From: Acidobacteriota bacterium
GTDB lineage: Bacteria; Acidobacteriota; UBA890; WLXD01
Reading direction: 5' to 3'
DNA: 64,000 bases
Assembly: GCA_965205505.1 (NCBI GenBank)
Contig: CBDBHB010000006.1
Coordinates: forward strand, 384,001 to 448,000
Part shown: positions 4,760 through 42,969 of the stretch, in pieces
Numbering within the stretch: position 1 is the stretch's first letter
Layout of the letters: every line of letters begins with the position of its first letter
Made by a program: the position numbers and the translations under genes
The notes under the pieces: generated by a model
What the model was told of the DNA's origin: nothing
Databases searched by the model: none
What the model saw: only the letters and a program-made list of their open reading frames with translations

Positions 4760-5935
4760 CTATTGCAGCGTAATGAGGTACTTGATCGCGAACGTGCCGA
4801 GCCAGTGCGACCCGTAGTAGTTGGCCTCGAACATCGCCGCCGTTCCATGGGCCGCCTGCTGTGCTGCGGTTGATCGGTAGGCCTCGAAGCTCGGATGCTC
4901 GCTGCCGAGGGTGGCCGCCAGGCGACTTAGCGCCTCGGCACGCGTGAAGGCCAGCCCGATCAGGTGCGACTTCGCCCCCATGAGCCCGCCGTCCTCTGCG
5001 ACACTCTCGCCCAGTTGTACTTGTTCAGCTAGTCTGCGAAAGTTCGGGCTGTCCGGCGCTGGCAGAAACCTGTCGTGCCAGCTCGTGAAGCTCGGCCGAT
5101 CGAGGACCCGTGCCATCAACGTCGCCTCTTGTAGACATGGTGACAAGAAATCGGAGGCCGATGGCTCGTAGGCCAACGGACAATCGACGTCAGCGCCGTA
5201 GAGTGCCTCGGCGCGCGAGACTACCAGGTGCCATAGAGCCGTATCATCGGTGCTCTCCGCGTAGTCGAGGATCAGATCCATCGCGAATGCGGTGTTGGCA
5301 TGGGTACCGCTACGCACCGGATAGTCGAGGCTCTCGAGATAAAAGGGCAAGCGATCGACGAATACCTGCGCCAGCGGCGCCGAGTTCTCGGCCCAGGTGG
5401 CGGCATCGGGGTATGTCGAGTCGCTCAGCGCGGCGTGCAACGCAAGCAACCAGGCCCAACCATAGGGGCGCTCGAAGGAGCGGTTGTCGGTGAAGAAGGA
5501 AAGCTCACCGGCAAGCGGCCGCGCGCCGAGGTGCTCGTCGAGCTTCTCGGCGATGAGCGGGGCGATGGGCGACTCCGGGAACCGATCGAGGATCTCGACC
5601 AGCGCCCAGGTCGAGTTCACTGCCGAGTGCCAGTCGAAACAACCGTAGAAGGCGCGCGTGGTCTCGAAGTCGGGACGCAGCGCCGCAGTGCGCTCATACA
5701 GGTACCCGGTCCCGCTGGGGGCTGTGTGCGGCCGATCAAGGCATGCGAGTGGCATTGCTGCCAGCGCCAGTGCCGTGTTGTCGTCGAGCTTCGGCTCGTC
5801 CGGTAGAGCAAACACCGGATCGGGCTGAGCTTCCGGCGGGGTTCTGTCGACGTCAGCCTGACAACCGCCCAGCGCGGTGAGCATCAAGGCCACTACGTGA
5901 AGCGAACGGTGAGAACTGAACGAAGGCATGATCAA
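4760..5935 (-). CDS. DUF2891-family lipoprotein
   Basis: FYGCFDWHSAV, FERPYGWAWLL, YYGSHWL motifs; lipobox-like LGGC. Confidence 0.85.
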   Translation of the reverse strand: MIMPSFSSHRSLHVVALMLTALGGCQADVDRTPPEAQPDPVFALPDEPKLDDNTALALAAMPLACLDRPHTAPSGTGYLYERTAALRPDFETTRAFYGCFDWHSAVNSTWALVEILDRFPESPIAPLIAEKLDEHLGARPLAGELSFFTDNRSFERPYGWAWLLALHAALSDSTYPDAATWAENSAPLAQVFVDRLPFYLESLDYPVRSGTHANTAFAMDLILDYAESTDDTALWHLVVSRAEALYGADVDCPLAYEPSASDFLSPCLQEATLMARVLDRPSFTSWHDRFLPAPDSPNFRRLAEQVQLGESVAEDGGLMGAKSHLIGLAFTRAEALSRLAATLGSEHPSFEAYRSTAAQQAAHGTAAMFEANYYGSHWLGTFAIKYLITLQ

Positions 5936-15985: not shown

Positions 15986-17230
15986 ATGCGTCGGGCGACT
16001 TCAACGGTGGGAGCCGTACTTGTAGCGGTGCTGATGGCCGCGCCTGTCGGATGTGGCTCAATTCGAGGTGAGTCTTCGAGCTTGCCGCCAACGCTGATCT
16101 TGATCTCGATGGACGGCTTCCGCTCCGACTATATCGAGCGGGTCGAGACACCGCACCTGGATCGCGTAATCGCCGGCGGGGTGCGTGCTGAGGGGCTGAT
16201 CCCGCCGTTCCCGAGCAAGACCTTCCCAGGCCACTACACGTTGGTGACCGGCCTCTATCCAGGTCACCACGGAATCATCTCCAACAACATGCGCGATCCG
16301 GGGTGGCCAGAGGAGTTCGGTTTGAACCGGCGGCGCGAGGTGGAGAACGGTCGTTGGTGGGGCGGCGAGCCGATTTGGGTGGCCGCACAGCGTCAAGGAC
16401 TCCGGTCGGCCGTCTACTTTTGGCCGGGATCCGAGGCGGCTGTGCAGGGGGTACGTCCGACTCACTGGTACAAGTTCGACGCCAGCGTTCCGTTCGAGGC
16501 ACGCGTCGACCAGGTCCTCGAGTGGATCGATCTTCCCGCCAACGAGCGCCCGTCGCTCATCGCGCTGTACTTGGGAGAGCCCAACGACAGCGGCCATCGC
16601 TTCGGCCCGTTGGCCGACGAGACGATGGCGGCGATTCGTCGTGTCGATGCGACCGTTGGACGTTTGCTCGACGGTCTCGACGAACGTCACATACGGCAGT
16701 CGACCAATATCGTCTTGGTCGCCGACCATGGCATGGCGCAGATGGACTCCGAACGAGTGATATTGGTCGATGACCTCGTCGATCTCGAACCCGACGAGGT
16801 TTTCGAGCAAGGTGCGCTGCTGCAGGTGTTTCCGCGCCCCGGTCGCGAAGATCTGATCTATGATGCGCTGGCTGGTGCCCATCCGAACCTGCACGTCTAT
16901 CGTCGCGACGAACTGCCAGCGCGGCTGCGCCTATACGACCACCCGCGACTGCCGCCGATACTGGCGACACCGGATGTGGGATGGGAAGTTCTCACACGCT
17001 CGCGGCGCGCCGAGTGGGGCAACAGAATGATCGCTGGCGATCACGGCCAGGACCCGACGCATCCGGACATGCAGGCGATCTTCGTCGCCGCCGGGCCGGC
17101 GTTCGCCAGCGGCGTCATCGTGCCACCAATCGAGGCGGTCGACGTCTACGGCCTGCTCGCCGCCGCGCTCGGTATCCGGGTGCCCGACAACGACGGCAAC
17201 CCGGCTCGCACCTCCAGCATCCTGCGCTAA
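15986..17230 (+). CDS. Nucleotide pyrophosphatase/phosphodiesterase (alkaline phosphatase superfamily)
   Basis: ISMDGFR, PSKTFPGHYTLVTGLYP, DSGH, ADHGM, GDHG; signal-like N-terminus. Confidence 0.92.
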   Translation: MRRATSTVGAVLVAVLMAAPVGCGSIRGESSSLPPTLILISMDGFRSDYIERVETPHLDRVIAGGVRAEGLIPPFPSKTFPGHYTLVTGLYPGHHGIISNNMRDPGWPEEFGLNRRREVENGRWWGGEPIWVAAQRQGLRSAVYFWPGSEAAVQGVRPTHWYKFDASVPFEARVDQVLEWIDLPANERPSLIALYLGEPNDSGHRFGPLADETMAAIRRVDATVGRLLDGLDERHIRQSTNIVLVADHGMAQMDSERVILVDDLVDLEPDEVFEQGALLQVFPRPGREDLIYDALAGAHPNLHVYRRDELPARLRLYDHPRLPPILATPDVGWEVLTRSRRAEWGNRMIAGDHGQDPTHPDMQAIFVAAGPAFASGVIVPPIEAVDVYGLLAAALGIRVPDNDGNPARTSSILR

Positions 17231-21906: not shown

Positions 21907-21971
21907 CGCGCCTTGATCTCACCCGCAAATCCCTTCTGCGATCTGCAACGATCATCTGTTACAGGCCACTA
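21907..21971 (-). repeat. Partial (one-ended) copy of the MITE at 40495-40769
   Basis: Reverse complement matches the reconstituted MITE left end (T plus 40495-40558) at 61 of 65 nt; its TAG is the stop codon of the FmdB-family gene. Confidence 0.9.
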
Positions 21972-36491: not shown

Positions 36492-38774
36492 ATGCGTACC
36501 AATTGCCCGCCCCCGTTTCCCGCGTCGAGCGCGTTCATCGTCGCCGCTTTGCTGCTCGCCCCAACGCTTGCGGCCCCGGTCGAGGGCCAGGCCCCGGCCG
36601 ATGGGCCACGTGCCATGACCTTCCTCGACATGCAGCACATGGCTCGTGCCGGCTCCTTCACCCCTAGCCGCGACGGCAAGTGGATGCTGTACACGGTAAC
36701 CACACCCGATTGGGAGGAAGCGACGCAGCAGTCCGACATCCATTTGGTGTCACTGGAGCAGGGCGCCGCGTCGGGTCGTCGCATGACCTACACGGACGAC
36801 AAGAACGAGGGCTCCCCGGCATGGTCGCGCGACGGACGCTTCTTCGTGTTTGCTTCTGACCGCGACTCTGACGACGATAACGACCAGCTGTATCTGATGC
36901 GCCCGGATGGCGGCGAGGCGCGGCGAATCACGGATGCCGAGGACGGCGCGTCGAACTTCGCCTTCAGCGACGACGGCCAGTGGCTCGTCTACCGCAGCGG
37001 CGAGTCCGGCCGGGAGGAGCTGTTTCGACTTCCGGTGCAGGGCATCCACGCGGCCGTCGCCGAGCAGCTCACCGACGCCGCCGCCGGTGTCGAAGGCTGG
37101 GAGTGGGCTCCGGATAGCCGCCGGATCTACTTCGCCAGGCCCGATAGCGCCGATGCGGACGAGCGCTTGCGCACCGAGATGAAGTTCACCGTCGACGTTC
37201 GCAACCAGGAGACGCCGCTCTCGAGCCTGTGGGCGCTCGAGCTCGATTCGCTGGAGGCGACTCGGTTGACCGACAATGCGAGCATGAGCGTGGCGAGCTT
37301 CACGGTCTCCGACGACGGTCGCTGGGTGGGCTTCACGGGATCTTCGGCCGAGCGCTACGAGCGCAACATCACCGAGGAGCGTATCAACGCCGACCTCTAC
37401 CTGCTCGAGACCTCGACCGGGCATGTGGAGCGATTGACCGACAACCACGAGGTCGGTGAAGGCAGCATGAGCTTCTCGCCCGACGGGCGTCTGCTGGCGT
37501 TCTCCGCGCCCGGCGACATGCACGCCTACAGCATGAAGAACCGTCGCATCTACGTGCGCGAGGTCGAGGAGCGGGGCGGCGCGTTCCGCCAGGTCGGCAC
37601 CGGGTTCGATGGTCACGCCTCGCCGAGCTTCTGGTCCGACGACGGCGCGACCATCTTCTTCAACGGCGGCGTGCGTGTTACCAGCCAGCTTCACGGGGTC
37701 GACGTGGCCAACGATAGGGTGCAGCAGCTGACGCACGCAGAGGCCGCGCTCAGGGTCAGCCGCGACCGCGACTCCGGCGTGCTGCTGATCAACTACTCCG
37801 ATCCGAGCACCCCGCCGACGCTGTTCACGGTGGCCAGCGTCGAGGAGGTGGGCACGCGCTCGGCATGGAAGCAGCTCGTCGACGTCAACCGCCAGATAGA
37901 AGGCCTCGCCCTGGGCGAGGAGACCGAGGTCACCTGGACGTCGACCGACGGCAAGCAGGTCGGCGGCGTGCTGATGAAGCCGGTAGGCTACGAGGAAGGC
38001 AACCGCTACCCGCTCATCGTCGCCATCCACGGTGGCCCCGCCGGCGCCGACACGCTGCGGTTCAACGGCGGCTACGGATCACAGGTGTACGCTGGCGCCG
38101 GGTACGCGGTGTTGAAGCCCAACTACCGAGGCTCGTCCAACTACGGCGAGGAGCACCGCACCGCAATTGTCGGCAACTACTTTCCGCAGGGCTACGACGA
38201 CATCATGACCGGCGTCGACCACCTCATCGCCGAGGGCATAGTCGACCCCGGTCGCATGGGGGCGCTCGGCTGGAGCGCCGGCGGGCACTGGTCGAACTGG
38301 ATCCTCACCCACACCGACCGCTTCAAGGCGATCAGCTCCGGGGCGGGCACCTCGAACTGGATCTCGATGTACGCGCAGAGCGACGTACAGCGCAACCGCC
38401 AGTTCTACCTCGGCAACGACCTCCCGTACGACAACTACGACGCCTACTGGGAGCAATCGCCGATGAAGTACATCAAGAATGCCAAGACGCCGACGATGAT
38501 CCATGTGGTCGAGGGCGACCCGCGCGTTCCCAGCCCGCAGTCGGTCGAGCTGCACATGGCGCTCAAGAAGCTCGGTGTGCCGACCGAGCTGTACATGTAC
38601 CCGGGTCGCAGCCACGGCATCCCCGATCCGCGCAACCGGCTGGTGAAGTCGGTCAGCGAGATGGCGTGGATGGATTACTACGTGCGGGGCATCGGCGAGA
38701 AGTTCGCCTGGCGCGACGTGCTGAAGACACTCGAGGGCGAACCGGAAAAGACCGACGCGAACGGTGGCAGCTGA
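36492..38774 (+). CDS. S9-family peptidase with beta-propeller
   Basis: IHGGP, PNYRGS, GWSAGG nucleophile, DPRVP, SHG; PD40-like repeats. Confidence 0.93.
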   Translation: MRTNCPPPFPASSAFIVAALLLAPTLAAPVEGQAPADGPRAMTFLDMQHMARAGSFTPSRDGKWMLYTVTTPDWEEATQQSDIHLVSLEQGAASGRRMTYTDDKNEGSPAWSRDGRFFVFASDRDSDDDNDQLYLMRPDGGEARRITDAEDGASNFAFSDDGQWLVYRSGESGREELFRLPVQGIHAAVAEQLTDAAAGVEGWEWAPDSRRIYFARPDSADADERLRTEMKFTVDVRNQETPLSSLWALELDSLEATRLTDNASMSVASFTVSDDGRWVGFTGSSAERYERNITEERINADLYLLETSTGHVERLTDNHEVGEGSMSFSPDGRLLAFSAPGDMHAYSMKNRRIYVREVEERGGAFRQVGTGFDGHASPSFWSDDGATIFFNGGVRVTSQLHGVDVANDRVQQLTHAEAALRVSRDRDSGVLLINYSDPSTPPTLFTVASVEEVGTRSAWKQLVDVNRQIEGLALGEETEVTWTSTDGKQVGGVLMKPVGYEEGNRYPLIVAIHGGPAGADTLRFNGGYGSQVYAGAGYAVLKPNYRGSSNYGEEHRTAIVGNYFPQGYDDIMTGVDHLIAEGIVDPGRMGALGWSAGGHWSNWILTHTDRFKAISSGAGTSNWISMYAQSDVQRNRQFYLGNDLPYDNYDAYWEQSPMKYIKNAKTPTMIHVVEGDPRVPSPQSVELHMALKKLGVPTELYMYPGRSHGIPDPRNRLVKSVSEMAWMDYYVRGIGEKFAWRDVLKTLEGEPEKTDANGGS

Positions 38775-38788
38775 GAAGAGCGTTGGCC

Positions 38789-39095
38789 GTGTCCGAGGCC
38801 GCCGTACGATTCGACGATATCCACAAGAGCTACGGCGAGACCGTCGCGCTGTGCGGCGTGTCGTTCGAGGCTCGTTCTGGCGAGGCGTTCGGGCTACTGG
38901 GTCCCCAACGGTGCCGGCAAGACCAGCCTGATCGGGGTGCCAGTCTGGGAGCTGGCGCTGGCGCCGGGAATTCTGATCATCTCGACCTGGCTGGCGCTCA
39001 AGCTCGGGGCGCGGCTGTTTCGCATCGGGCTGCTGGCGCTCGGTAGCCGTCCGAAGCTGAACGAAATCTGGCGTCAGGCGCGCCTATCTAGATGA
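38789..39095 (+). pseudogene. Deleted ABC exporter: ATPase N-terminus fused to permease C-terminus
   Basis: IHKSYGETVAL...FGLLGP, +1 shift, NGAGKTSLI, directly followed by VPVWELAL...LGARLFRIGLLALGSRPKLNEIWRQAR. Confidence 0.85.
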
Positions 39096-39188
39096 GATGA
39101 GAAGGCCAACCTCCTGAACGCAGTAGCCTGACGGCTCTGCAAACGTTTCTTCAAACGTAACGGGCTCGAAGCCCAAGGAGGTTGGCCG

Positions 39189-40234
39189 ATGAGGAGTGTA
39201 ACGATTGGACTGGACGTAAGCGACCGGTACAGCCGTATGTGCGTGCTCGACAGTAAGGGCAGGGTGATGGAGGAAGGGCGGGTGAGGACGAGCCCGGAGG
39301 GGCTGGCGAGGCGGTTCGGGTGCGAGGAGCCCGCTCGAGTAGTGCTGGAGGTTGGAACGCACTCGCCGTGGATGAGTGAGCAGTTGAAGCAACTGGGTCA
39401 TGAGGTGCTGGTGGCTAACCCGAGGCGGCTGAAGCTGATCTATGGCGAGCACGACAAGACCGACCGGTTGGATGCCGAGCACCTGGCACGAGTGGGCAGA
39501 ATGGACCCAAAGCTGCTTAAGACGGTGCAGCATCGAGGCAGACAAGCGCGAGCGGATCTAGCCGTGATTCGGAGCCGAGATGCTCTGGTAAAGAGCCCAC
39601 GCAGTTGGTGAGCCATGTGCGTGGTGCGGTCAAGTCGGCCGGTTGTCGTATTCCCAGGTGCTCGACGCCGGCGTTCGCGCGCACCGCGCCAGAGCACATA
39701 CCGGAGCGGCTCAAGGGAGCGCTCGAGCCGGTGCTTGAAACGATCGCCATGCTGACGGGCAACATCCAGCAATACGAGCGTCAGATCGTGCAGCTGTGCC
39801 AGGGGCGATACCCGGAGACACAGCAGCTCCAGCAAGTGGCCGGGGTCGGAGCTCTGACCGCACTGGCGTATGTGCTGACGCTCGAGGAGCCGGAGCGGTT
39901 CAATACCTCCAGAGCCGTGGGCCCGTACCTGGGACTGAGACCGAAGAAACGGCAGTCGGGGGACAAGGACCCTGCGCTACGAATAACCAAGGCGGGCGAC
40001 AAAATGCTCCGACGCCTGTTGGTGGGCTCGGCGCATTACATCCTGGGCCCCTTCGGGCCCGATACTGAGCTCAGACGCTGGGGGCTCAAGCTGGCCGGAC
40101 GCGGTGGTCCTCATGGCAACAAAAAGGCAGCAGTTGCTGTCGCCCGTAAGCTCGCCGTTGTGCTGCACCGACTGTGGCTGAGTGGAGACGAGTACGAACC
40201 GTTGCGCGCACCTGTAGAGGTTTCAGCAGCATGA
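39189..40234 (+). pseudogene. IS110-family DEDD recombinase/transposase, frameshifted
   Basis: IGLDVS, VLEVG, DKTDRLDAEHLAR, GVGALTA, YLGLRPKKRQSG, ITKAG, AVARKL; one base missing near 39597. Confidence 0.92.
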
Positions 40235-40239
40235 ACTAA

Positions 40240-40480
40240 CCCGCAACCAGGAGGTCGGTAGGGCGACGCGACCCAACGGTTATCGATCTGACCGCCCGGT
40301 CCGGGCGACTGCGAAGGTCACTACGAGCTTCGAGCTCGGCAGCTAGATTGCAGCGCCTCGAATCGGGACGGACCCCAGAATGCACCGGACGACCTGAATC
40401 CTCGTCCACCAGAGTGCGAATAGGAGCATGGCGTGCAGATCGATTCTTCGCTGGCCACCACATTGCCCTTGACCGAACTA
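40240..40480 (+). ncRNA. Candidate bridge RNA/seekRNA region (boundaries approximate)
   Basis: Stem 40309-40314/40348-40353 encloses loop strands AGGTCACTA and GCAGCTAGA and hairpin CGAGC-TTCGA-GCTCG; AGGTCACTA is complementary to target TAGTGGCCT; ATAGGAG (40420-40426) resembles the IS end ATAGAAG. Confidence 0.75.
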
Positions 40481-40494
40481 GGCCTTCTCATAGA

Positions 40495-40769
40495 AGTGGC
40501 CTGTAGCAGATGATCGTTGCCTATCGCAGATGGGATTTGCGGGTGAGATCAAGGCGCGGCGAGGAAGGCGATGCAGAGGGCATCGTCGACGAGGCGCAAC
40601 GCCGATATCGCCCGCAACTGCCCATCTGTCCGGAGGATGGCGGCGAAATCGGCCCGTCTGCGGCGTTGCTCCTCCTCCAAGATGGGCAAACATCGTCTCG
40701 TCGTCGCGCCTGGCATCCGGACCCATTTCGCCACCACGATACGCAACGATCATCTGTTACAGACCACTA
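40495..40769. mobile_element. Non-autonomous MITE-like element with ~33-bp terminal inverted repeats
   Basis: AGTGGCCTGTAGCAGATGATCGTTGCCTATCG (40495-40526) versus CGATACGCAACGATCATCTGTTACAGACCACTA (40737-40769), 3 mismatches; TA ends; second partial copy in the window. Confidence 0.88.
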
Positions 40770-40774
40770 GTGGC

Positions 40775-41545
40775 CTATTTCCGTCGGCTCGGAACTGGAA
40801 CCTGAAGAACTTGGCCGGGGTAGATGCGCGTCGACTGCAGCGCGTTGTTGGACTGGATACGGTCGGTCGTTGTGCCGTGGTTCTGCGCGATTCTCCAGAG
40901 CGTGTCACTACGACTCACTCTGTAGGCCACGACATCGGTGAATCCGGTGCCGGAACGCGGACTCGACCGGCCGACAAGTTGCCGCACATACTCGGCATAC
41001 TGGCGTGGGAACAGCGCCACGTGGTAGTGCGGCGGGTGTTTCTCGGCCGCGGCCTCGAGCACGCCGCGCTCTTCGAGCGACAGCAGGATTCTCTCGAGCC
41101 AGCTACGACACGACGGCTTGTTGTGCCGCCGCAGGTCGATTGCCATCCCGGTCGGGTGTACCGACCGGGGCGATGCGTTGCGCGGCTGACCGGTTTGCGG
41201 GCGCGTCAGGCTGGTGACCACCAGTTGCTCGCCGCAGGCGGCGCGAAACTGCGCCGCCAACCGCTCGGTGAAGAGCTTTACCTCCGGCCGCGCGTAGGGG
41301 TATGAGAGATCCTTGAGGGTGTAGTCGCGATTGCCGCGCAGCTGCACCAGCAAGCCGGCGCTTACGAACCGGGAAACGTGCGTTCCGTCGCGCATGAACG
41401 TGAAGTCGTGCACGCTAGCCTGGTGGTTCTGGCGGTCCATCGAGCTGCGGCTGCCACGGAGGCTCTGCGCGTCCGCCGCGCTTGCAGACAGTGCCAGCCC
41501 GACAAGAGCAGCAAGAAGATATGAGACTGTCTTTTGAATCGTCAA
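40775..41545 (-). CDS. DUF5715 (peptidase M15-like) protein with C-terminal LysM domain
   Basis: Signal peptide, VTSLTRP, SVHPTGMAIDL, PPHYHVALF, LysM YRVSRSDTLWRIA...IYPGQVLQVP; start uncertain. Confidence 0.85.
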   Translation of the reverse strand: MTIQKTVSYLLAALVGLALSASAADAQSLRGSRSSMDRQNHQASVHDFTFMRDGTHVSRFVSAGLLVQLRGNRDYTLKDLSYPYARPEVKLFTERLAAQFRAACGEQLVVTSLTRPQTGQPRNASPRSVHPTGMAIDLRRHNKPSCRSWLERILLSLEERGVLEAAAEKHPPHYHVALFPRQYAEYVRQLVGRSSPRSGTGFTDVVAYRVSRSDTLWRIAQNHGTTTDRIQSNNALQSTRIYPGQVLQVPVPSRRK

Positions 41546-41727
41546 AATATTGTTGAGTCGTGAAAACACGTTAAACCAAGGCCAACAATTGTTGAAGATG
41601 CTATAAGCTATCATTAGCTAGTTTCACCTAACAAGAGTTTGTTGAACACGTTTATTGACCGCGAAGAATCGCCATGCGCTAGCTGATGATTCGGATTGGG
41701 CCCGGCGTGTGCCACTATGATTTGTGC

Positions 41728-42969
41728 ATGGCCGAAACAGCAGAACCCCGAAGTGGCCTGGTAGGGCAAGGACGTGGCCAACAGCGGCCAGCAGTGCGCA
41801 GCAATGCGCCTGCGGCGCAGTCAATGGCTGGCAAGGTCCTGGGCGCGGTCCGCGCCAGACATTCCGAGGCGGTGGAATTTCTTCGGAAGCTCGTTTTCGC
41901 CGAGACCCCGACGCTCGAGCCGCATACACAGACCGTGGCGCTCCAGCAGCTCACCGAGGGGCTGGCGGCGGCCGGTCTCCGGTGTCGGCGACATTCGGGC
42001 TACACCAGCGGCGGCATGCTGTTGGCTAGCTGGCCACGCCAGCGGCGTTCGTCGCTGCAGTTGCTGATCGGCCACTGCGACACTGTTTGGCCGCTCGGCA
42101 CACTCGAGACCATGCCGGTCGAGATAGAGGGATCGCGCATGCGGGGCCCCGGCGTGTATGACATGAAATGCGGTGTAACGCAGACGGTGTATGCGTTGCA
42201 CGTGTTGCGGGACCTCGGCTTGGAGCCCGAGGTCAAGCCGGTGGTGTTCATCAACTCCGACGAAGAGATCGGTAGCCACGATTCCGAGAAGTACATTCGG
42301 TGGCTCGCCGGCTGTGTCGACCGAGCCTACGTCATGGAGCCGTCGCTGACGTCGGCAGGCTGGCTGAAAACGGCCCGCAAGGGGGTGCGGCAGTATCGAG
42401 TCAAAGTAACTGGCCGGGCGGCTCACGCCGGGTTGAATCCTGAGGAGGGAGTGAGCGCCATCTTGGAGATGTCGCGTCTGGTGGAAGAGCTGTTCGCGCT
42501 CAACGACGCCCAGCGCGGTATCAGCGTAAACGTCGGGATCATCGGTGGCGGAACGCGCTCGAACGTCATCGCTGCCGAGTGTGTGGCAGATGTCGACGTG
42601 CGCGTTCCGACGCTCGATGACGCGTCGCGGGTCGACGCCGCGATCCGCAGCCTGACGACCACGCACCCGGCCGCAACCGTGCAGGCGGTTCAAGCGCAAG
42701 GACGGTCGCCCATGGAGCAGACCGCCGGCGGGAAGTCGCTTTGGGACGCCGCGCGGCGTCACGCCGAGAGCCTGGGCTTTGAGCTCGAGCACGGACGCGC
42801 CGGCGGCGGATCGGACGGCAACATAACCAACCTCTACACGCCGACGCTCGACGGGCTCGGCGCCGTCGGCGACGGCGCGCACGCCTCGCATGAATATGTC
42901 GATCTCGAGCAGATGGTCGAACGTACGGCGCTGCTGGTGTTGCTTTTGTTGGAGCCGCCACTCTCGTGA
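41728..42969 (+). CDS. M20-family metallopeptidase (carboxypeptidase G2-like)
   Basis: GHCDTVW, GPGVYDMK, SDEEIGS, GRAAHAG, GGGSDGN, AHASHE; start uncertain. Confidence 0.92.
   Translation: MAETAEPRSGLVGQGRGQQRPAVRSNAPAAQSMAGKVLGAVRARHSEAVEFLRKLVFAETPTLEPHTQTVALQQLTEGLAAAGLRCRRHSGYTSGGMLLASWPRQRRSSLQLLIGHCDTVWPLGTLETMPVEIEGSRMRGPGVYDMKCGVTQTVYALHVLRDLGLEPEVKPVVFINSDEEIGSHDSEKYIRWLAGCVDRAYVMEPSLTSAGWLKTARKGVRQYRVKVTGRAAHAGLNPEEGVSAILEMSRLVEELFALNDAQRGISVNVGIIGGGTRSNVIAAECVADVDVRVPTLDDASRVDAAIRSLTTTHPAATVQAVQAQGRSPMEQTAGGKSLWDAARRHAESLGFELEHGRAGGGSDGNITNLYTPTLDGLGAVGDGAHASHEYVDLEQMVERTALLVLLLLEPPLS

What the first reader, a model, noticed from the sequence alone, without database searches (positions are those of the whole stretch)
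39090..40502. IS1111-type element with a readable guide RNA that matches its own insertion site
Seen: removing the element at the AG core rebuilds the target CTATCT-AG-TGGCCT. In the 3' non-coding region, stem CTGCGA/TTGCAG encloses an internal loop and a hairpin. Loop strand AGGTCACTA (40315-40323) can pair with TAGTGGCCT over 9 nt with one G:U. The opposite strand GCAGCTAG (40339-40346) ends in the same CTAG as the left flank but matches only 5 of 8 positions. ATAGGAG (40420-40426) matches the element's right end plus core, ATAGAAG, with one wobble, and is a candidate donor guide. I could not find a convincing second donor guide. Established: IS110/IS1111 recombinases use bridge/seekRNAs encoded in their non-coding ends, downstream of tnp in the IS1111 group. 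Inference: this is a programmable RNA-guided recombinase with an AG core.
Basis: partly seen in the sequence, partly recalled or inferred. Interest (0 to 1): 0.88.

Follow-up and report, generated by a model that had tools for sequence, protein, structure and literature searches.

The report
RNA-guided insertion sequence targeting MITE tips
This is a frameshifted copy of an IS1111-type insertion sequence whose downstream non-coding region carries a readable guide (bridge/seek) RNA matching its own insertion site, the tip of another small transposon; it is a clear new example of a mechanism described in 2024, not a new mechanism.

Summary
The element (core AG 39090-91 and 40495-96) has 11-bp subterminal inverted repeats, a frameshifted DEDD/IS110 transposase gene and a 262-nt downstream non-coding region.

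The host genome holds 27 full copies. All sit at C(T)TAG|TGRCCT. 10 of the 27 have an intact 348-aa transposase gene. The unoccupied site CTAGTGGCCT occurs 109 times, mostly as the tip of a roughly 270-350-bp MITE.

In the non-coding region, AGGTCACTA (40315-23) is complementary to T-AG-TGGCCT with one G:U, and ..CTAG (40343-46) repeats the left flank plus core.

Relatives give the decisive evidence. Across 64 distinct relatives' RNAs, the same two loop strands track each element's own flanks:
- Left strand: 4.81 of 6 identities against 1.54 for non-cognate flanks.
- Right strand: complementary run of 5.67 against 3.17.

The 7-mer after GUGCG equals the right end plus core in 63 of 68 cases; the window has ATAGGAG against ATAGAAG. 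The second donor guide is located by homology (40370-81) but is weak in this element.

Transcription was not demonstrated.

Verdict: a new member of a known kind (IS1111-group bridge/seekRNA recombinase). Interest is moderate to low.

The parts
39088..39091 (+). Left half of the target: CT plus the core AG.
   Evidence: 25 of 27 copies have CTAG immediately left of ATGAG. One has TTAG. L015 has CTAG followed by an extra ATGAG unit.
39092..39107 (+). Left end of the element: the 5-nt extension ATGAG (39092-96) and the left subterminal inverted repeat ATGAGAAGGCC (39097-39107).
   Evidence: The same repeat is seen in most relatives.
39189..39611 (+). Transposase gene, N-terminal part (DEDD / RuvC-like domain). 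It is cut off by a frameshift: one G is missing after 39597.
   Evidence: PF01548, E = 1.3e-15. The deletion is shared by 5 of 27 copies.
39605..40234 (+). Transposase gene, C-terminal part, with the GLRPKKRQSG motif.
   Evidence: PF02371, E = 3.3e-17. The intact 348-aa form is in L004. NF033542 scores 205.5 bits against a cut-off of 140.
40294..40432 (+). Predicted bridge/seekRNA body, from the closing stem GCC (40294-96) to GGC (40430-32). The real 5' and 3' ends are unknown.
   Evidence: Closing stem 89.4% paired with double changes. P2 (40303-07 with 40354-58) is 96.6% paired, with 33 and 18 double changes at two of its pairs.
40315..40323 (+). Target guide, 5' loop strand. It is complementary to the top strand T-AG-TGGCCT (9 nt, one G:U at 40318).
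   Evidence: Invariant in 27 copies. The homologous strand tracks the right flank in relatives.
40324..40338 (+). Hairpin CGAGCU-UCG-AGCUCG between the two target-guide strands.
   Evidence: Relatives have a hairpin of variable length and sequence at this place (by inspection).
40339..40346 (+). Target guide, 3' loop strand GCAGCUAG. Only CUAG (40343-46) corresponds to the conserved left flank plus core.
   Evidence: In relatives, 4.81 of 6 positions equal the element's own left flank.
40370..40381 (+). Candidate right-donor guide strand GGACCCCAGAAU, 5' of the GCAC stem. Found by homology; weak in this element.
   Evidence: In relatives this block is the reverse complement of the left-end extension. 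Here CCCAG stands against the expected CTCAT (3 of 5).
40382..40417 (+). Stem P4, GCAC (40382-85) with GUGC (40414-17), enclosing a variable hairpin.
   Evidence: 99.3% paired in 68 sequences.
40420..40426 (+). Left-donor guide AUAGGAG. It equals the right end plus core, ATAGAAG, with one G-for-A difference.
   Evidence: The RNA 7-mer is identical to the element's own right end in 63 of 68 unique relatives, with concordant variants.
40469..40474 (+). Outward-facing -35-like hexamer TTGACC. It is a candidate half of a promoter completed at the circle junction.
   Evidence: TTGAC is present in 71 of 72 unique right-end tails, 26-28 nt from the end of the core. Hexamers were scored across the junction. 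Function is inferred.
40481..40496 (+). Right end of the element: the subterminal inverted repeat GGCCTTCTCAT (40481-91), the extension AGA (40492-94) and the core AG (40495-96).
40497..40502 (+). Right half of the target, TGGCCT.
   Evidence: 30 of 31 right junctions in the genome have TGGCCT and 1 has TGACCT.
40496..40767 (.). The MITE whose inverted-repeat tip is the target. Its end is GTGGCCTGTAGCAGATGATCGTTGC... and its far end lies at about 40767; boundaries are approximate.

Best explanation
The stretch is one non-autonomous copy of an insertion sequence of the IS1111 group of the IS110 family. The copy is non-autonomous because its transposase gene is frameshifted.

Inferred RNA structure: the 262-nt region downstream of the gene encodes a bridge/seekRNA. 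A closing stem (40294-96 with 40430-32) holds two arms.

Arm 1 is the target-binding loop.
- Its 5' strand, AGGUCACUA, pairs with the top strand of T-AG-TGGCCT.
- Its 3' strand, ..CUAG, pairs with the bottom strand of the left flank plus core.
- Together the two strands read the 10-bp site CTAG|TGGCCT.

Arm 2 and the junction strands are the donor-binding part.
- AUAGGAG reads the right end plus core (ATAGAAG).
- The strand 5' of the GCAC stem reads the left-end extension, poorly in this element.

Inferred from the published family mechanism: the transposase bound to this RNA excises the element as a circle joined at the AG core and recombines it with the target at AG.

Shown here:
- The site is the junction between host DNA and the first bases of a MITE inverted repeat.
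- The element therefore homes to MITE tips.
- Broken copies such as this one keep their ends and RNA intact. They were evidently spread by the 10 intact copies acting in trans, or were homogenised by gene conversion.
For: Family:
- PF01548 plus PF02371.
- NF033542 'IS110 family RNA-guided transposase', 205.5 bits against a cut-off of 140.
- The intact protein is 348 aa and carries GLRPKKRQSG.
- 11-bp subterminal repeats.
- The long non-coding region lies downstream of the gene: 262 nt against 97 nt upstream.

Site specificity:
- 27 of 27 full copies lie at C(T)TAG|TGRCCT with different outer left flanks.
- 30 of 31 right junctions are TGGCCT.
- There are 109 empty CTAGTGGCCT sites.

Guides:
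- The extent of complementarity (T-AG-TGGCCT plus CTAG) equals the 10 bp that are conserved among insertion sites.
- The guide order, top-strand match 5' of bottom-strand match and overlapping in the target, is the one reported for IS1111 seekRNAs (PMC11187229, section 'A seekRNA finds the target', read).

Covariation in relatives (75 loci with enough flank, 64 unique RNAs):
- 3' strand against the element's own left flank: 4.81 of 6, against 1.54 for non-cognate flanks. 57 of 64 rows exceed their own 95th percentile.
- 5' strand: Watson-Crick run of 5.67 against 3.17. 42 of 64 rows exceed their own 95th percentile.
- 25 of 38 distinct target classes meet both cut-offs set here: at least 4 of 5 left-flank identities and a Watson-Crick run of at least 5.
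- The donor 7-mer equals the element's own right end in 63 of 68 cases, with concordant variants ATGGAAG 50, ATAGAAG 10, ATAGAAA 2 and ATGGCAG 1.
- Elements with core AA carry the changed core in the 5' strand, the 3' strand and the donor 7-mer.

Structure: 85.5% of cells are paired, 0 of 500 shuffles reach the observed covariation score, and slid controls give 22-43% paired.
Against: - No direct evidence that the RNA is made. The element, including the non-coding region, is present in contigs of 4 metatranscriptome runs of one study, but contigs cannot show transcription, RNA ends or strand, and DNA can be present in such libraries.
- No match in Rfam 15 at E <= 1.
- The folds of the window RNA are not clearly better than shuffles: z = -1.55 and -1.59.
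- In this element the 5' target strand needs a G:U. Its pure Watson-Crick run outside the core is only 3.
- The left guide beyond CUAG shows no preference in occupied sites.
- The candidate right-donor strand matches only 3 of 5 positions. Among relatives with the same left end (TGAG), 9 have the complementary CTCA and 7 (the window's class) have CCCA.
- 13 of 38 target classes do not reach both matching criteria.
- My parsing of loop strands used regex anchors, and some loci were dropped. 84 loci among L031-L142 had recognisable ends, 82 were parsed and 75 had enough flank.
Confidence: 0.88

Rival explanations
1. Target choice is made by the protein, for example by recognising the MITE inverted repeat as DNA. 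On this view the complementarity in the non-coding region is coincidental or a by-product.
For: - The target is a repeated, structured DNA (a MITE inverted repeat), which a protein could recognise.
- In this element the left guide is only 4 nt and the right guide contains a wobble.
- No RNA was demonstrated.
Against: - Relatives with 38 different target classes carry matching changes in exactly these two strands.
- The expected chance occurrence of the 9-mer is about 0.0006 in the non-coding region (scaled).
- Published IS1111 members need the RNA (PMC11187229, abstract and sections read).
Confidence: 0.03
2. The non-coding region acts as DNA or as a regulatory element rather than as a trans-acting guide RNA. 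It might be an internal copy of target and end sequences used for strand pairing within the synapse, or a 3'-UTR structure controlling transposase expression.
For: - The sequence comparisons made here cannot tell RNA pairing from DNA pairing.
- The segments are short copies or complements of the ends and flanks.
- The fold z-scores are weak.
Against: - Stems P0, P2 and P4 keep pairing through compensatory changes, including G:U pairs, as expected for a structured RNA.
- Homologous systems co-purify the RNA with the transposase (PMC11187229, abstract).
- The NCBIfam family is named RNA-guided.
Confidence: 0.06
3. The many copies arose mainly by duplication or recombination of larger segments, or by assembly artefacts, rather than by site-specific transposition. 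On this view the 'target' is simply co-duplicated flanking sequence.
For: The window copy shares at least 1502 bp of left flank with copy L012 and at least 1506 bp of right flank with copy L008, with 0 mismatches. At least some copies are therefore involved in duplication, recombination or assembly problems.
Against: - The 27 copies have mostly different left flanks that converge only at CTAG. Only L001 and L012 share theirs.
- The right flanks diverge after TGGCCT in several classes.
- 109 empty sites exist.
- RNA-library contigs from another sample show still other flanks that begin to differ exactly at 39088 (table 7).
Confidence: 0.03

Closest known systems
IS1111-family elements with seekRNA: ISEc11, ISPa11, ISKpn4, ISPst6 (Siddiquee et al. 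2024, PMC11187229; abstract and sections 6, 9, 10, 13 and 14 read)
   Same: - DEDD transposase of about 340 aa with a GL-P----S/TG motif.
- Subterminal inverted repeats.
- A long non-coding region downstream of the gene.
- An RNA with a top-strand match 5' of a bottom-strand match, overlapping in the target.
- Natural re-targeting among relatives.
   Different: - A different clade. I did not compare the protein with those elements directly; the best plasmid-borne relatives are at most 36% identical.
- The target is a MITE tip.
- The left guide is effectively CUAG only.
- Here the donor-reading strands can also be read from family covariation, which that paper (as far as I read it) did not assign for IS1111.
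IS621 / IS110-group bridge RNA (Durrant et al. 2024, PMC11208160, passages found with 'IS1111' and 'STIR'; structures 8wt6 and 9t56)
   Same: - Two-part RNA logic: target loop and donor part, each reading both sides of a shared core dinucleotide.
[quoted passage not shown] That is what is seen here (closing stem).
   Different: - The RNA lies downstream, not upstream, of the gene.
- The guide order is reversed.
- The subterminal repeats are long.
- The core is AG; that IS621 uses CT is recalled, not checked here.
- Only the C-terminal domain matches the solved proteins, weakly: E = 6e-9 and 6e-8.
IS4321 / IS5075 (Partridge and Hall 2003; seen only as reference-list entries)
   Same: IS1111-family elements that insert into the terminal inverted repeats of another transposon family (the Tn21 family).
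   Different: Here the host element is a non-coding MITE of roughly 270-350 bp, and the site spans the junction of host flank and repeat tip. No sequence comparison was made.
ISPpu9 (Pares-Guillen et al. 2025, PMC12288879; abstract and passages read)
   Same: - AG dinucleotide at both ends, with recombination at AG.
- Insertion into a repeated extragenic element.
- Defective or modular derivatives mobilised in trans.
   Different: - ISPpu9 targets REP/BIME sequences.
- According to that paper it does not form a junction promoter, and it carries extra small RNAs (Asr9, Ssr9).
- None of these features was looked for here.

Membership tests
IS1111 group of the IS110 family | N-terminal DEDD (RuvC-like) transposase domain | tested here: met
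   PF01548, E = 1.3e-15. D9, E54, D92 and D95 are invariant in 20 relatives. Assigning these four residues as the catalytic DEDD is my inference.
IS1111 group of the IS110 family | C-terminal PF02371 domain with the GL-P----S/TG motif; protein of 330-350 aa | tested here: met
   PF02371, E = 3.3e-17. The intact copy is 348 aa and carries GLRPKKRQSG. G249, L250 and G258 are invariant and S257 is at least 90% conserved. The criterion is taken from PMC11187229, section 6.
IS1111 group of the IS110 family | Subterminal inverted repeats of 7-17 bp with short terminal extensions | tested here: met
   11-bp ATGAGAAGGCC / GGCCTTCTCAT, with 5-nt and 3-nt extensions. The length criterion comes from PMC11208160.
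IS1111 group of the IS110 family | The longer non-coding region lies downstream of the transposase gene | tested here: met
   262 nt downstream against 97 nt upstream.
IS1111 group of the IS110 family | Orientation- and site-specific insertion at a shared core dinucleotide, without a longer duplication | tested here: met
   27 of 27 copies lie at C(T)TAG|TGRCCT in one orientation relative to the site.
IS1111 group of the IS110 family | The curated family model is passed | tested here: met
   NF033542 scores 205.5 bits against a cut-off of 140.
seekRNA / bridge RNA system | The non-coding region contains a segment complementary to the top strand and a segment complementary to the bottom strand of the target, overlapping at the core, in a conserved loop, and both covary with the target | tested here: met
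   Window segments at 40315-23 and 40343-46. Covariation in 64 unique RNAs and 38 target classes.
seekRNA / bridge RNA system | Donor-reading segments for both element ends | tested here: inconclusive
   The right-end reader is clear: 63 of 68 identical, and the window differs at 1 position. The left-end reader is supported in part of the family but matches only 3 of 5 positions in this element.
seekRNA / bridge RNA system | The RNA is made and binds the transposase | not testable with these tools
   RNA-library contigs contain the region but cannot show transcription.
seekRNA / bridge RNA system | Circular intermediate joined at the core, with a junction promoter | tested here: inconclusive
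   No circle joint was found in the contigs of 4 runs (table 5). An outward TTGAC is conserved in 71 of 72 right-end tails. The best junction-spanning hexamer pair is only 8 of 12. No sigma-70-like site was found in the linear element.

The most novel reading that the evidence does not exclude
This clade may show a minimal, asymmetric guide design. The element homes to the junction that another transposon (a MITE) creates when it inserts. It would use a 9-nt top-strand guide that tolerates a G:U, plus a left guide reduced to CU plus the core, so that it is indifferent to whatever host DNA lies beside the MITE. Donor recognition would rest mostly on one RNA strand (AUAGGAG) plus the protein-bound subterminal repeats, with the second donor strand dispensable. 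If so, this would be a natural, specialised 'hyperparasite' of a MITE family. It would also be evidence that IS1111-type recombinases need fewer programmed nucleotides than the IS621 model suggests.
Probability: 0.3. Interest if true: 0.55.

Novelty: new member of a known kind. Interest (0 to 1): 0.35.

Why it matters
The mechanism was published in 2024, so the finding does not open a new question. Its value is as a clean natural data set.
- One genome holds 27 insertions and 109 empty sites, which define the recognised bases exactly.
- A clade with at least 38 target classes has target-guide strands and a right-end donor strand that can be read by eye.
- The clade includes a natural change of the core dinucleotide (AG to AA) that is mirrored in three RNA strands.

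This could help people who design IS1111-type recombinases, for which no IS1111-group structure appeared in my search of solved structures. It also documents an RNA-guided element that specialises on the tips of another mobile element.

Tried and rejected
- Rfam 15 scan of 38500-41500 at E <= 1: no match.
- The search for related loci in genome contigs with the single protein gave only 1 distant locus at 43% identity. The alignment-based metagenome scan and the phylum-wide genome search were needed instead.
- Same-genus and same-family genomes: the element was not found with this query. 0 of 4 same-genus genomes matched, and 1 of 10 same-family genomes matched only at 35% identity. The closest genome relative, G011, carries an interrupted copy and was not analysed further.
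- RNA evidence: contigs of 4 metatranscriptome runs from one study cover the element. They show no circle joint and cannot show transcription, RNA ends or strand. The higher contig depth over the 3' half is not interpretable.
- Search for an autonomous parent of the MITE: no inverted pair of MITE ends is longer than 700 bp. Nine looser pairs of 700-2600 bp have only 8-bp terminal identity. The two loci inspected have no ORF of 250 aa or more. The IS630-like affiliation, suggested by the CTAG/TA flanks, is a recalled resemblance and was not tested.
- Preference for GCAG 5' of CTAG in occupied against empty sites: none.
- A fixed-register score for the left-end donor strand is noisy, because the spacing varies.
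- The stem below P2 has two alternatives. Pairing 40297-40300 with 40362-65 is 38.9% paired in the alignment. Pairing 40298-40302 with 40370-74 is 63.6% paired. The alignment is poor there, so the choice is left open.
- Supplementary files of the papers were not available. The bridge-RNA models of Durrant et al. and the target logos of Siddiquee et al. may already include members of this clade.
Full report
**1. What is in the window**

- The element is bounded by AG at 39090-91 and at 40495-96.
- Inside the left AG come the extension ATGAG (39092-96) and the 11-bp repeat ATGAGAAGGCC (39097-39107).
- The inverted copy GGCCTTCTCAT lies at 40481-91, followed by AGA and the right AG.
- The flanks are ..CTATCT (left) and TGGCCT.. 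(right).

Two overlapping ORFs, 39189-39611 and 39605-40234, carry PF01548 (DEDD_Tnp_IS110) and PF02371. The region downstream of the gene is 262 nt and the region upstream is 97 nt.

**2. Copies in the same genome**

The window's genome is 5.98 Mb in 9 contigs, with about 64% G+C. It gives 33 blastn matches to the element, 27 of them full length.

Junctions:
- All 27 full copies have both ends.
- 25 have CTAG immediately left of the element and 1 has TTAG.
- L015 has CTAG followed by an extra ATGAG unit.
- 26 have AGTGGCCT on the right and 1 has AGTGACCT.
- Counting right junctions alone, 30 of 31 are TGGCCT.
- The outer left flanks differ from copy to copy and converge only at CTAG.

The copies are 99-100% identical. 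The two loop strands discussed below do not vary in any of the 27.

State of the transposase gene:
- 10 of 27 copies have an intact 348-aa gene.
- 5 of 27, including the window, lack one G after 39597.
- 12 of 27 share a 4-bp deletion at 39454-57.

The same lesion occurs at different loci. Broken copies therefore either spread with help in trans or were homogenised by gene conversion.

**3. The target is the tip of a MITE**

- The empty site CTAGTGGCCT occurs 109 times in the genome. My own composition estimate is about 13 by chance.
- Most of these sites continue GTAACAGATGATCGTTGC... and occur in inverted pairs.
- Of 143 such ends (at most 4 mismatches in 24 nt), 106 are preceded by CTAG (empty) and 13 by TAGAAG (the element's right end).
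- There are 38 adjacent inverted pairs, with a mode of about 270-280 bp (22 of 38).
- One example shows a 350-bp element with inverted repeats of about 30 bp, flanked by CTAG on both sides.

The insertion point therefore lies between the first and second base of the MITE repeat, and the recognised 10 bp span the junction of host DNA and MITE. In the window the MITE occupies about 40496-40767. No autonomous parent was found.

**4. The guide segments in this element**

- AGGTCACTA (40315-23) is the reverse complement of TAGTGACCT. It pairs with the top strand T-AG-TGGCCT over 9 nt, with one G:U at 40318.
- The single insertion at TGACCT (L026) would be a perfect match.
- GCAGCTAG (40339-46) repeats the left flank only in CTAG.
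- The bases 5' of CTAG show no enrichment for GCAG in occupied against empty sites (1.24 against 1.12 matches of 4).
- The union of the two matches is exactly the 10 bp conserved among insertion sites.
- The 9-mer with the wobble allowed is expected 0.30 times in the whole window on both strands.
- The order (top-strand match 5', bottom-strand match 3', overlapping in the target) is the one described for IS1111 seekRNAs (PMC11187229).

**5. Relatives**

How they were found:
- The intact protein has thousands of relatives, mostly from metagenomes. 7999 of the 8000 scored candidates have E <= 1e-30, and the nearest are 92% identical. One relative is labelled Gemmatimonadales.
- In genomes of the same genus the element was not found (0 of 4).
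- In 401 genomes of the phylum, 18 have a match at E <= 1e-90, counting the window's own genome.
- A metagenome scan with an alignment of 20 relatives returned 80 loci.

Shared architecture:
- Of the loci L031-L142, 84 have the same end architecture: flank-AG | AT(G/T)(G/A)G ATGAGAAGG.. ... ..CCTTCTCAT (A/G)GA AG | flank.
- Their non-coding regions share GACUGCG, a 5' loop strand, a variable hairpin, a 3' loop strand ending in the core, and A-U(U/G)GCAGC. This is followed by ..GGAC....CAU-GCAC, a hairpin, and GUGCG-N-AU(G/A)GAAGC.

**6. Covariation of guides and flanks**

82 loci were parsed, 75 had enough flank, and these gave 64 unique RNAs.
- The 6 nt 5' of the core in the 3' strand equal the element's own left flank at 4.81 positions on average. 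The figure is 1.54 for non-cognate flanks (3768 pairs). 57 of 64 rows exceed their own 95th percentile.
- The 5' strand has a Watson-Crick run of 5.67 against the element's own 10 nt right of the core, and 3.17 for non-cognates. 42 of 64 rows exceed their own 95th percentile.
- With L037 excluded, the 63 RNAs group into 38 target classes. 25 classes reach both cut-offs set here (at least 4 of 5 left-flank identities and a Watson-Crick run of at least 5).
- The window's class fails the strict run criterion only because of its G:U.

The flanks are not part of the element, so shared ancestry of the elements cannot produce this agreement.

**7. Donor side**

- The 7 nt after GUGCG-N equal the element's own right end plus core in 63 of 68 unique combinations. 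The variants are concordant: ATGGAAG 50, ATAGAAG 10, ATAGAAA 2 and ATGGCAG 1.
- The window (ATAGGAG against ATAGAAG) is one of 5 combinations with a single difference. That difference, G for A, would be a G:T wobble with the bottom strand.
- Four loci from two genomes of one genus have core AA. There the 5' strand, the 3' strand and this 7-mer all carry the changed core.
- The block 5' of GCAC tends to be the reverse complement of the left-end extension. Examples are ATGGG with CCCA, ATTGGG with CCCAAT, ATAAGG with CCTTA and ATGAA with TTCA.
- For ATGAG elements the split is 9 CTCA against 7 CCCA. The window (CCCAG) and its 71% relative L063 are in the mismatched class.
- The second donor guide is therefore located (40370-81) but weak here.

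**8. Structure**

On a MAFFT alignment of 68 RNAs, RNAalifold recovers P2, P3 and P4. A structure I specified was then counted.

| Feature | Window positions | Result |
|---|---|---|
| Whole structure | | 85.5% paired; 22-43% when partners are slid; 0 of 500 shuffles reach the covariation score |
| Closing stem | 40294-96 with 40430-32 | 89.4% paired, with 14 and 5 double changes |
| P2 | 40303-07 with 40354-58 | 96.6% paired, with 33 and 18 double changes |
| P4 | 40382-85 with 40414-17 | 99.3% paired |

The closing stem puts the donor-reading strands into a multi-loop, as Durrant et al. remark for many IS1111 orthologues (PMC11208160). The pairing just below P2 is ambiguous. The window RNA alone folds into the expected target arm, but its energy is not clearly better than that of shuffles (z = -1.59).

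**9. Expression and circle**

- No sigma-70-like promoter is found in the linear element.
- An outward TTGAC is conserved in 71 of 72 unique right-end tails, 26-28 nt from the end of the core.
- With the ends joined, the best junction-spanning pair is TTGACC-18-GAAGAT, which scores 8 of 12.
- This fits the junction-promoter idea known for the family (title of Prosseda et al. 2006, seen only in a reference list), but it is inference.
- Four metatranscriptome runs of one study contain contigs covering the element and the non-coding region. In 3 of the 4 runs the contigs carry the G that restores the frame.
- Their flanks differ from the window's exactly outside CT..(39088) on the left, and beyond the first 14-30 bases of the MITE repeat (40510 and 40526) on the right. 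No circle joint is seen.
- Contigs cannot show transcription.

**10. Comparison with known systems, and verdict**

- The protein passes NF033542, 'IS110 family RNA-guided transposase'.
- Only its C-terminal domain matches the solved ISCro4 and IS621 transposases, and weakly.
- Plasmid-borne relatives are at most 36% identical.
- Every defining feature of the IS1111 group that I could test is met.
- The RNA features are met at sequence level, except for a convincing left-end donor strand in this particular element. RNA production could not be tested.
- An AG core and insertion into repeated elements or into other transposons' inverted repeats are already known for the family: ISPpu9 (PMC12288879) and IS4321/IS5075 (title only).

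The finding is therefore real and correctly interpreted, but it is a new member of a known kind. One locus (L037) comes from a genome flagged as unpublished (G166). It contributed 1 of 64 and 1 of 68 rows and was left out afterwards, and no claim depends on it.

Noticed in passing
window 40496-40767; further target motifs at window 5887-5895, 16228-16236, 21963-21971 and 40768-40776: A MITE family of roughly 270-350 bp, with inverted repeats of about 30 bp (GTGGCCTGTAACAGATGATCGTTGC..) and CTAG on both sides. The genome holds 143 repeat-like ends and 38 adjacent pairs. No autonomous parent was found. The CTAG/TA flanks recall IS630-type elements; that resemblance is recalled, not tested.
   Followed up: partly
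window 37590-39091 and 40497-42002 (locus L001), compared with L012 (G000:C6:510924-515333) and L008 (G000:C7:8410-12823): The window copy shares at least 1502 bp of left flank with L012 and at least 1506 bp of right flank with L008, with no mismatch. The other sides differ. This looks like recombination between copies, a segmental duplication or an assembly problem at repeats.
   Followed up: partly
window 39454-39457 and 39597; copies L001-L028: The same inactivating lesions recur at different loci. A 4-bp deletion is present in 12 of 27 copies and a 1-bp deletion in 5 of 27, and L010 has both. This suggests trans-mobilisation of defective copies, or gene conversion.
   Followed up: partly
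L046, L056, L060 and L062 (genomes G217 and G262): A sub-clade uses core AA instead of AG. The 5' target strand, the 3' target strand and the right-end donor 7-mer (AUAGAAA) all carry the change. This is a natural example of core reprogramming.
   Followed up: partly
window 40297-40302 with 40362-40365 or with 40370-40374: Two mutually exclusive pairings are possible for the stem below P2. The second would sequester GGACC of the candidate left-end donor strand. It could be an alignment artefact or a conformational switch.
   Followed up: partly
L015 (G000:C9:2702236-2703645), left end: This copy has three ATGAG units at its left end instead of two.
   Followed up: no
G000:C8:891216-892379; also G000:C9:2875347-2875443: One copy matches element positions 1-699 and 1062-1413, separated by 116 bp that do not match. 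It may be a derivative with an internal deletion or replacement. A solitary 97-bp left-end fragment at 95% identity lies about 6 kb from copy L003.
   Followed up: no
window 38764-39095: The reading frame that runs into the element ends at a TGA inside the left end (39093-95). Upstream, a P-loop-like GPNGAGKT stretch (my reading, about 38900-38930) and a hydrophobic C-terminal stretch lie in different frames. The neighbouring gene may be rearranged.
   Followed up: no
L067-L121 group (for example L073 and L090): About 16 distinct RNAs from soil-type metagenome contigs all target ..TTCTCGGA|AG|TTCGC.. and carry an extra inserted segment in the donor part. This target is probably another repeated element in those genomes.
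   Followed up: no
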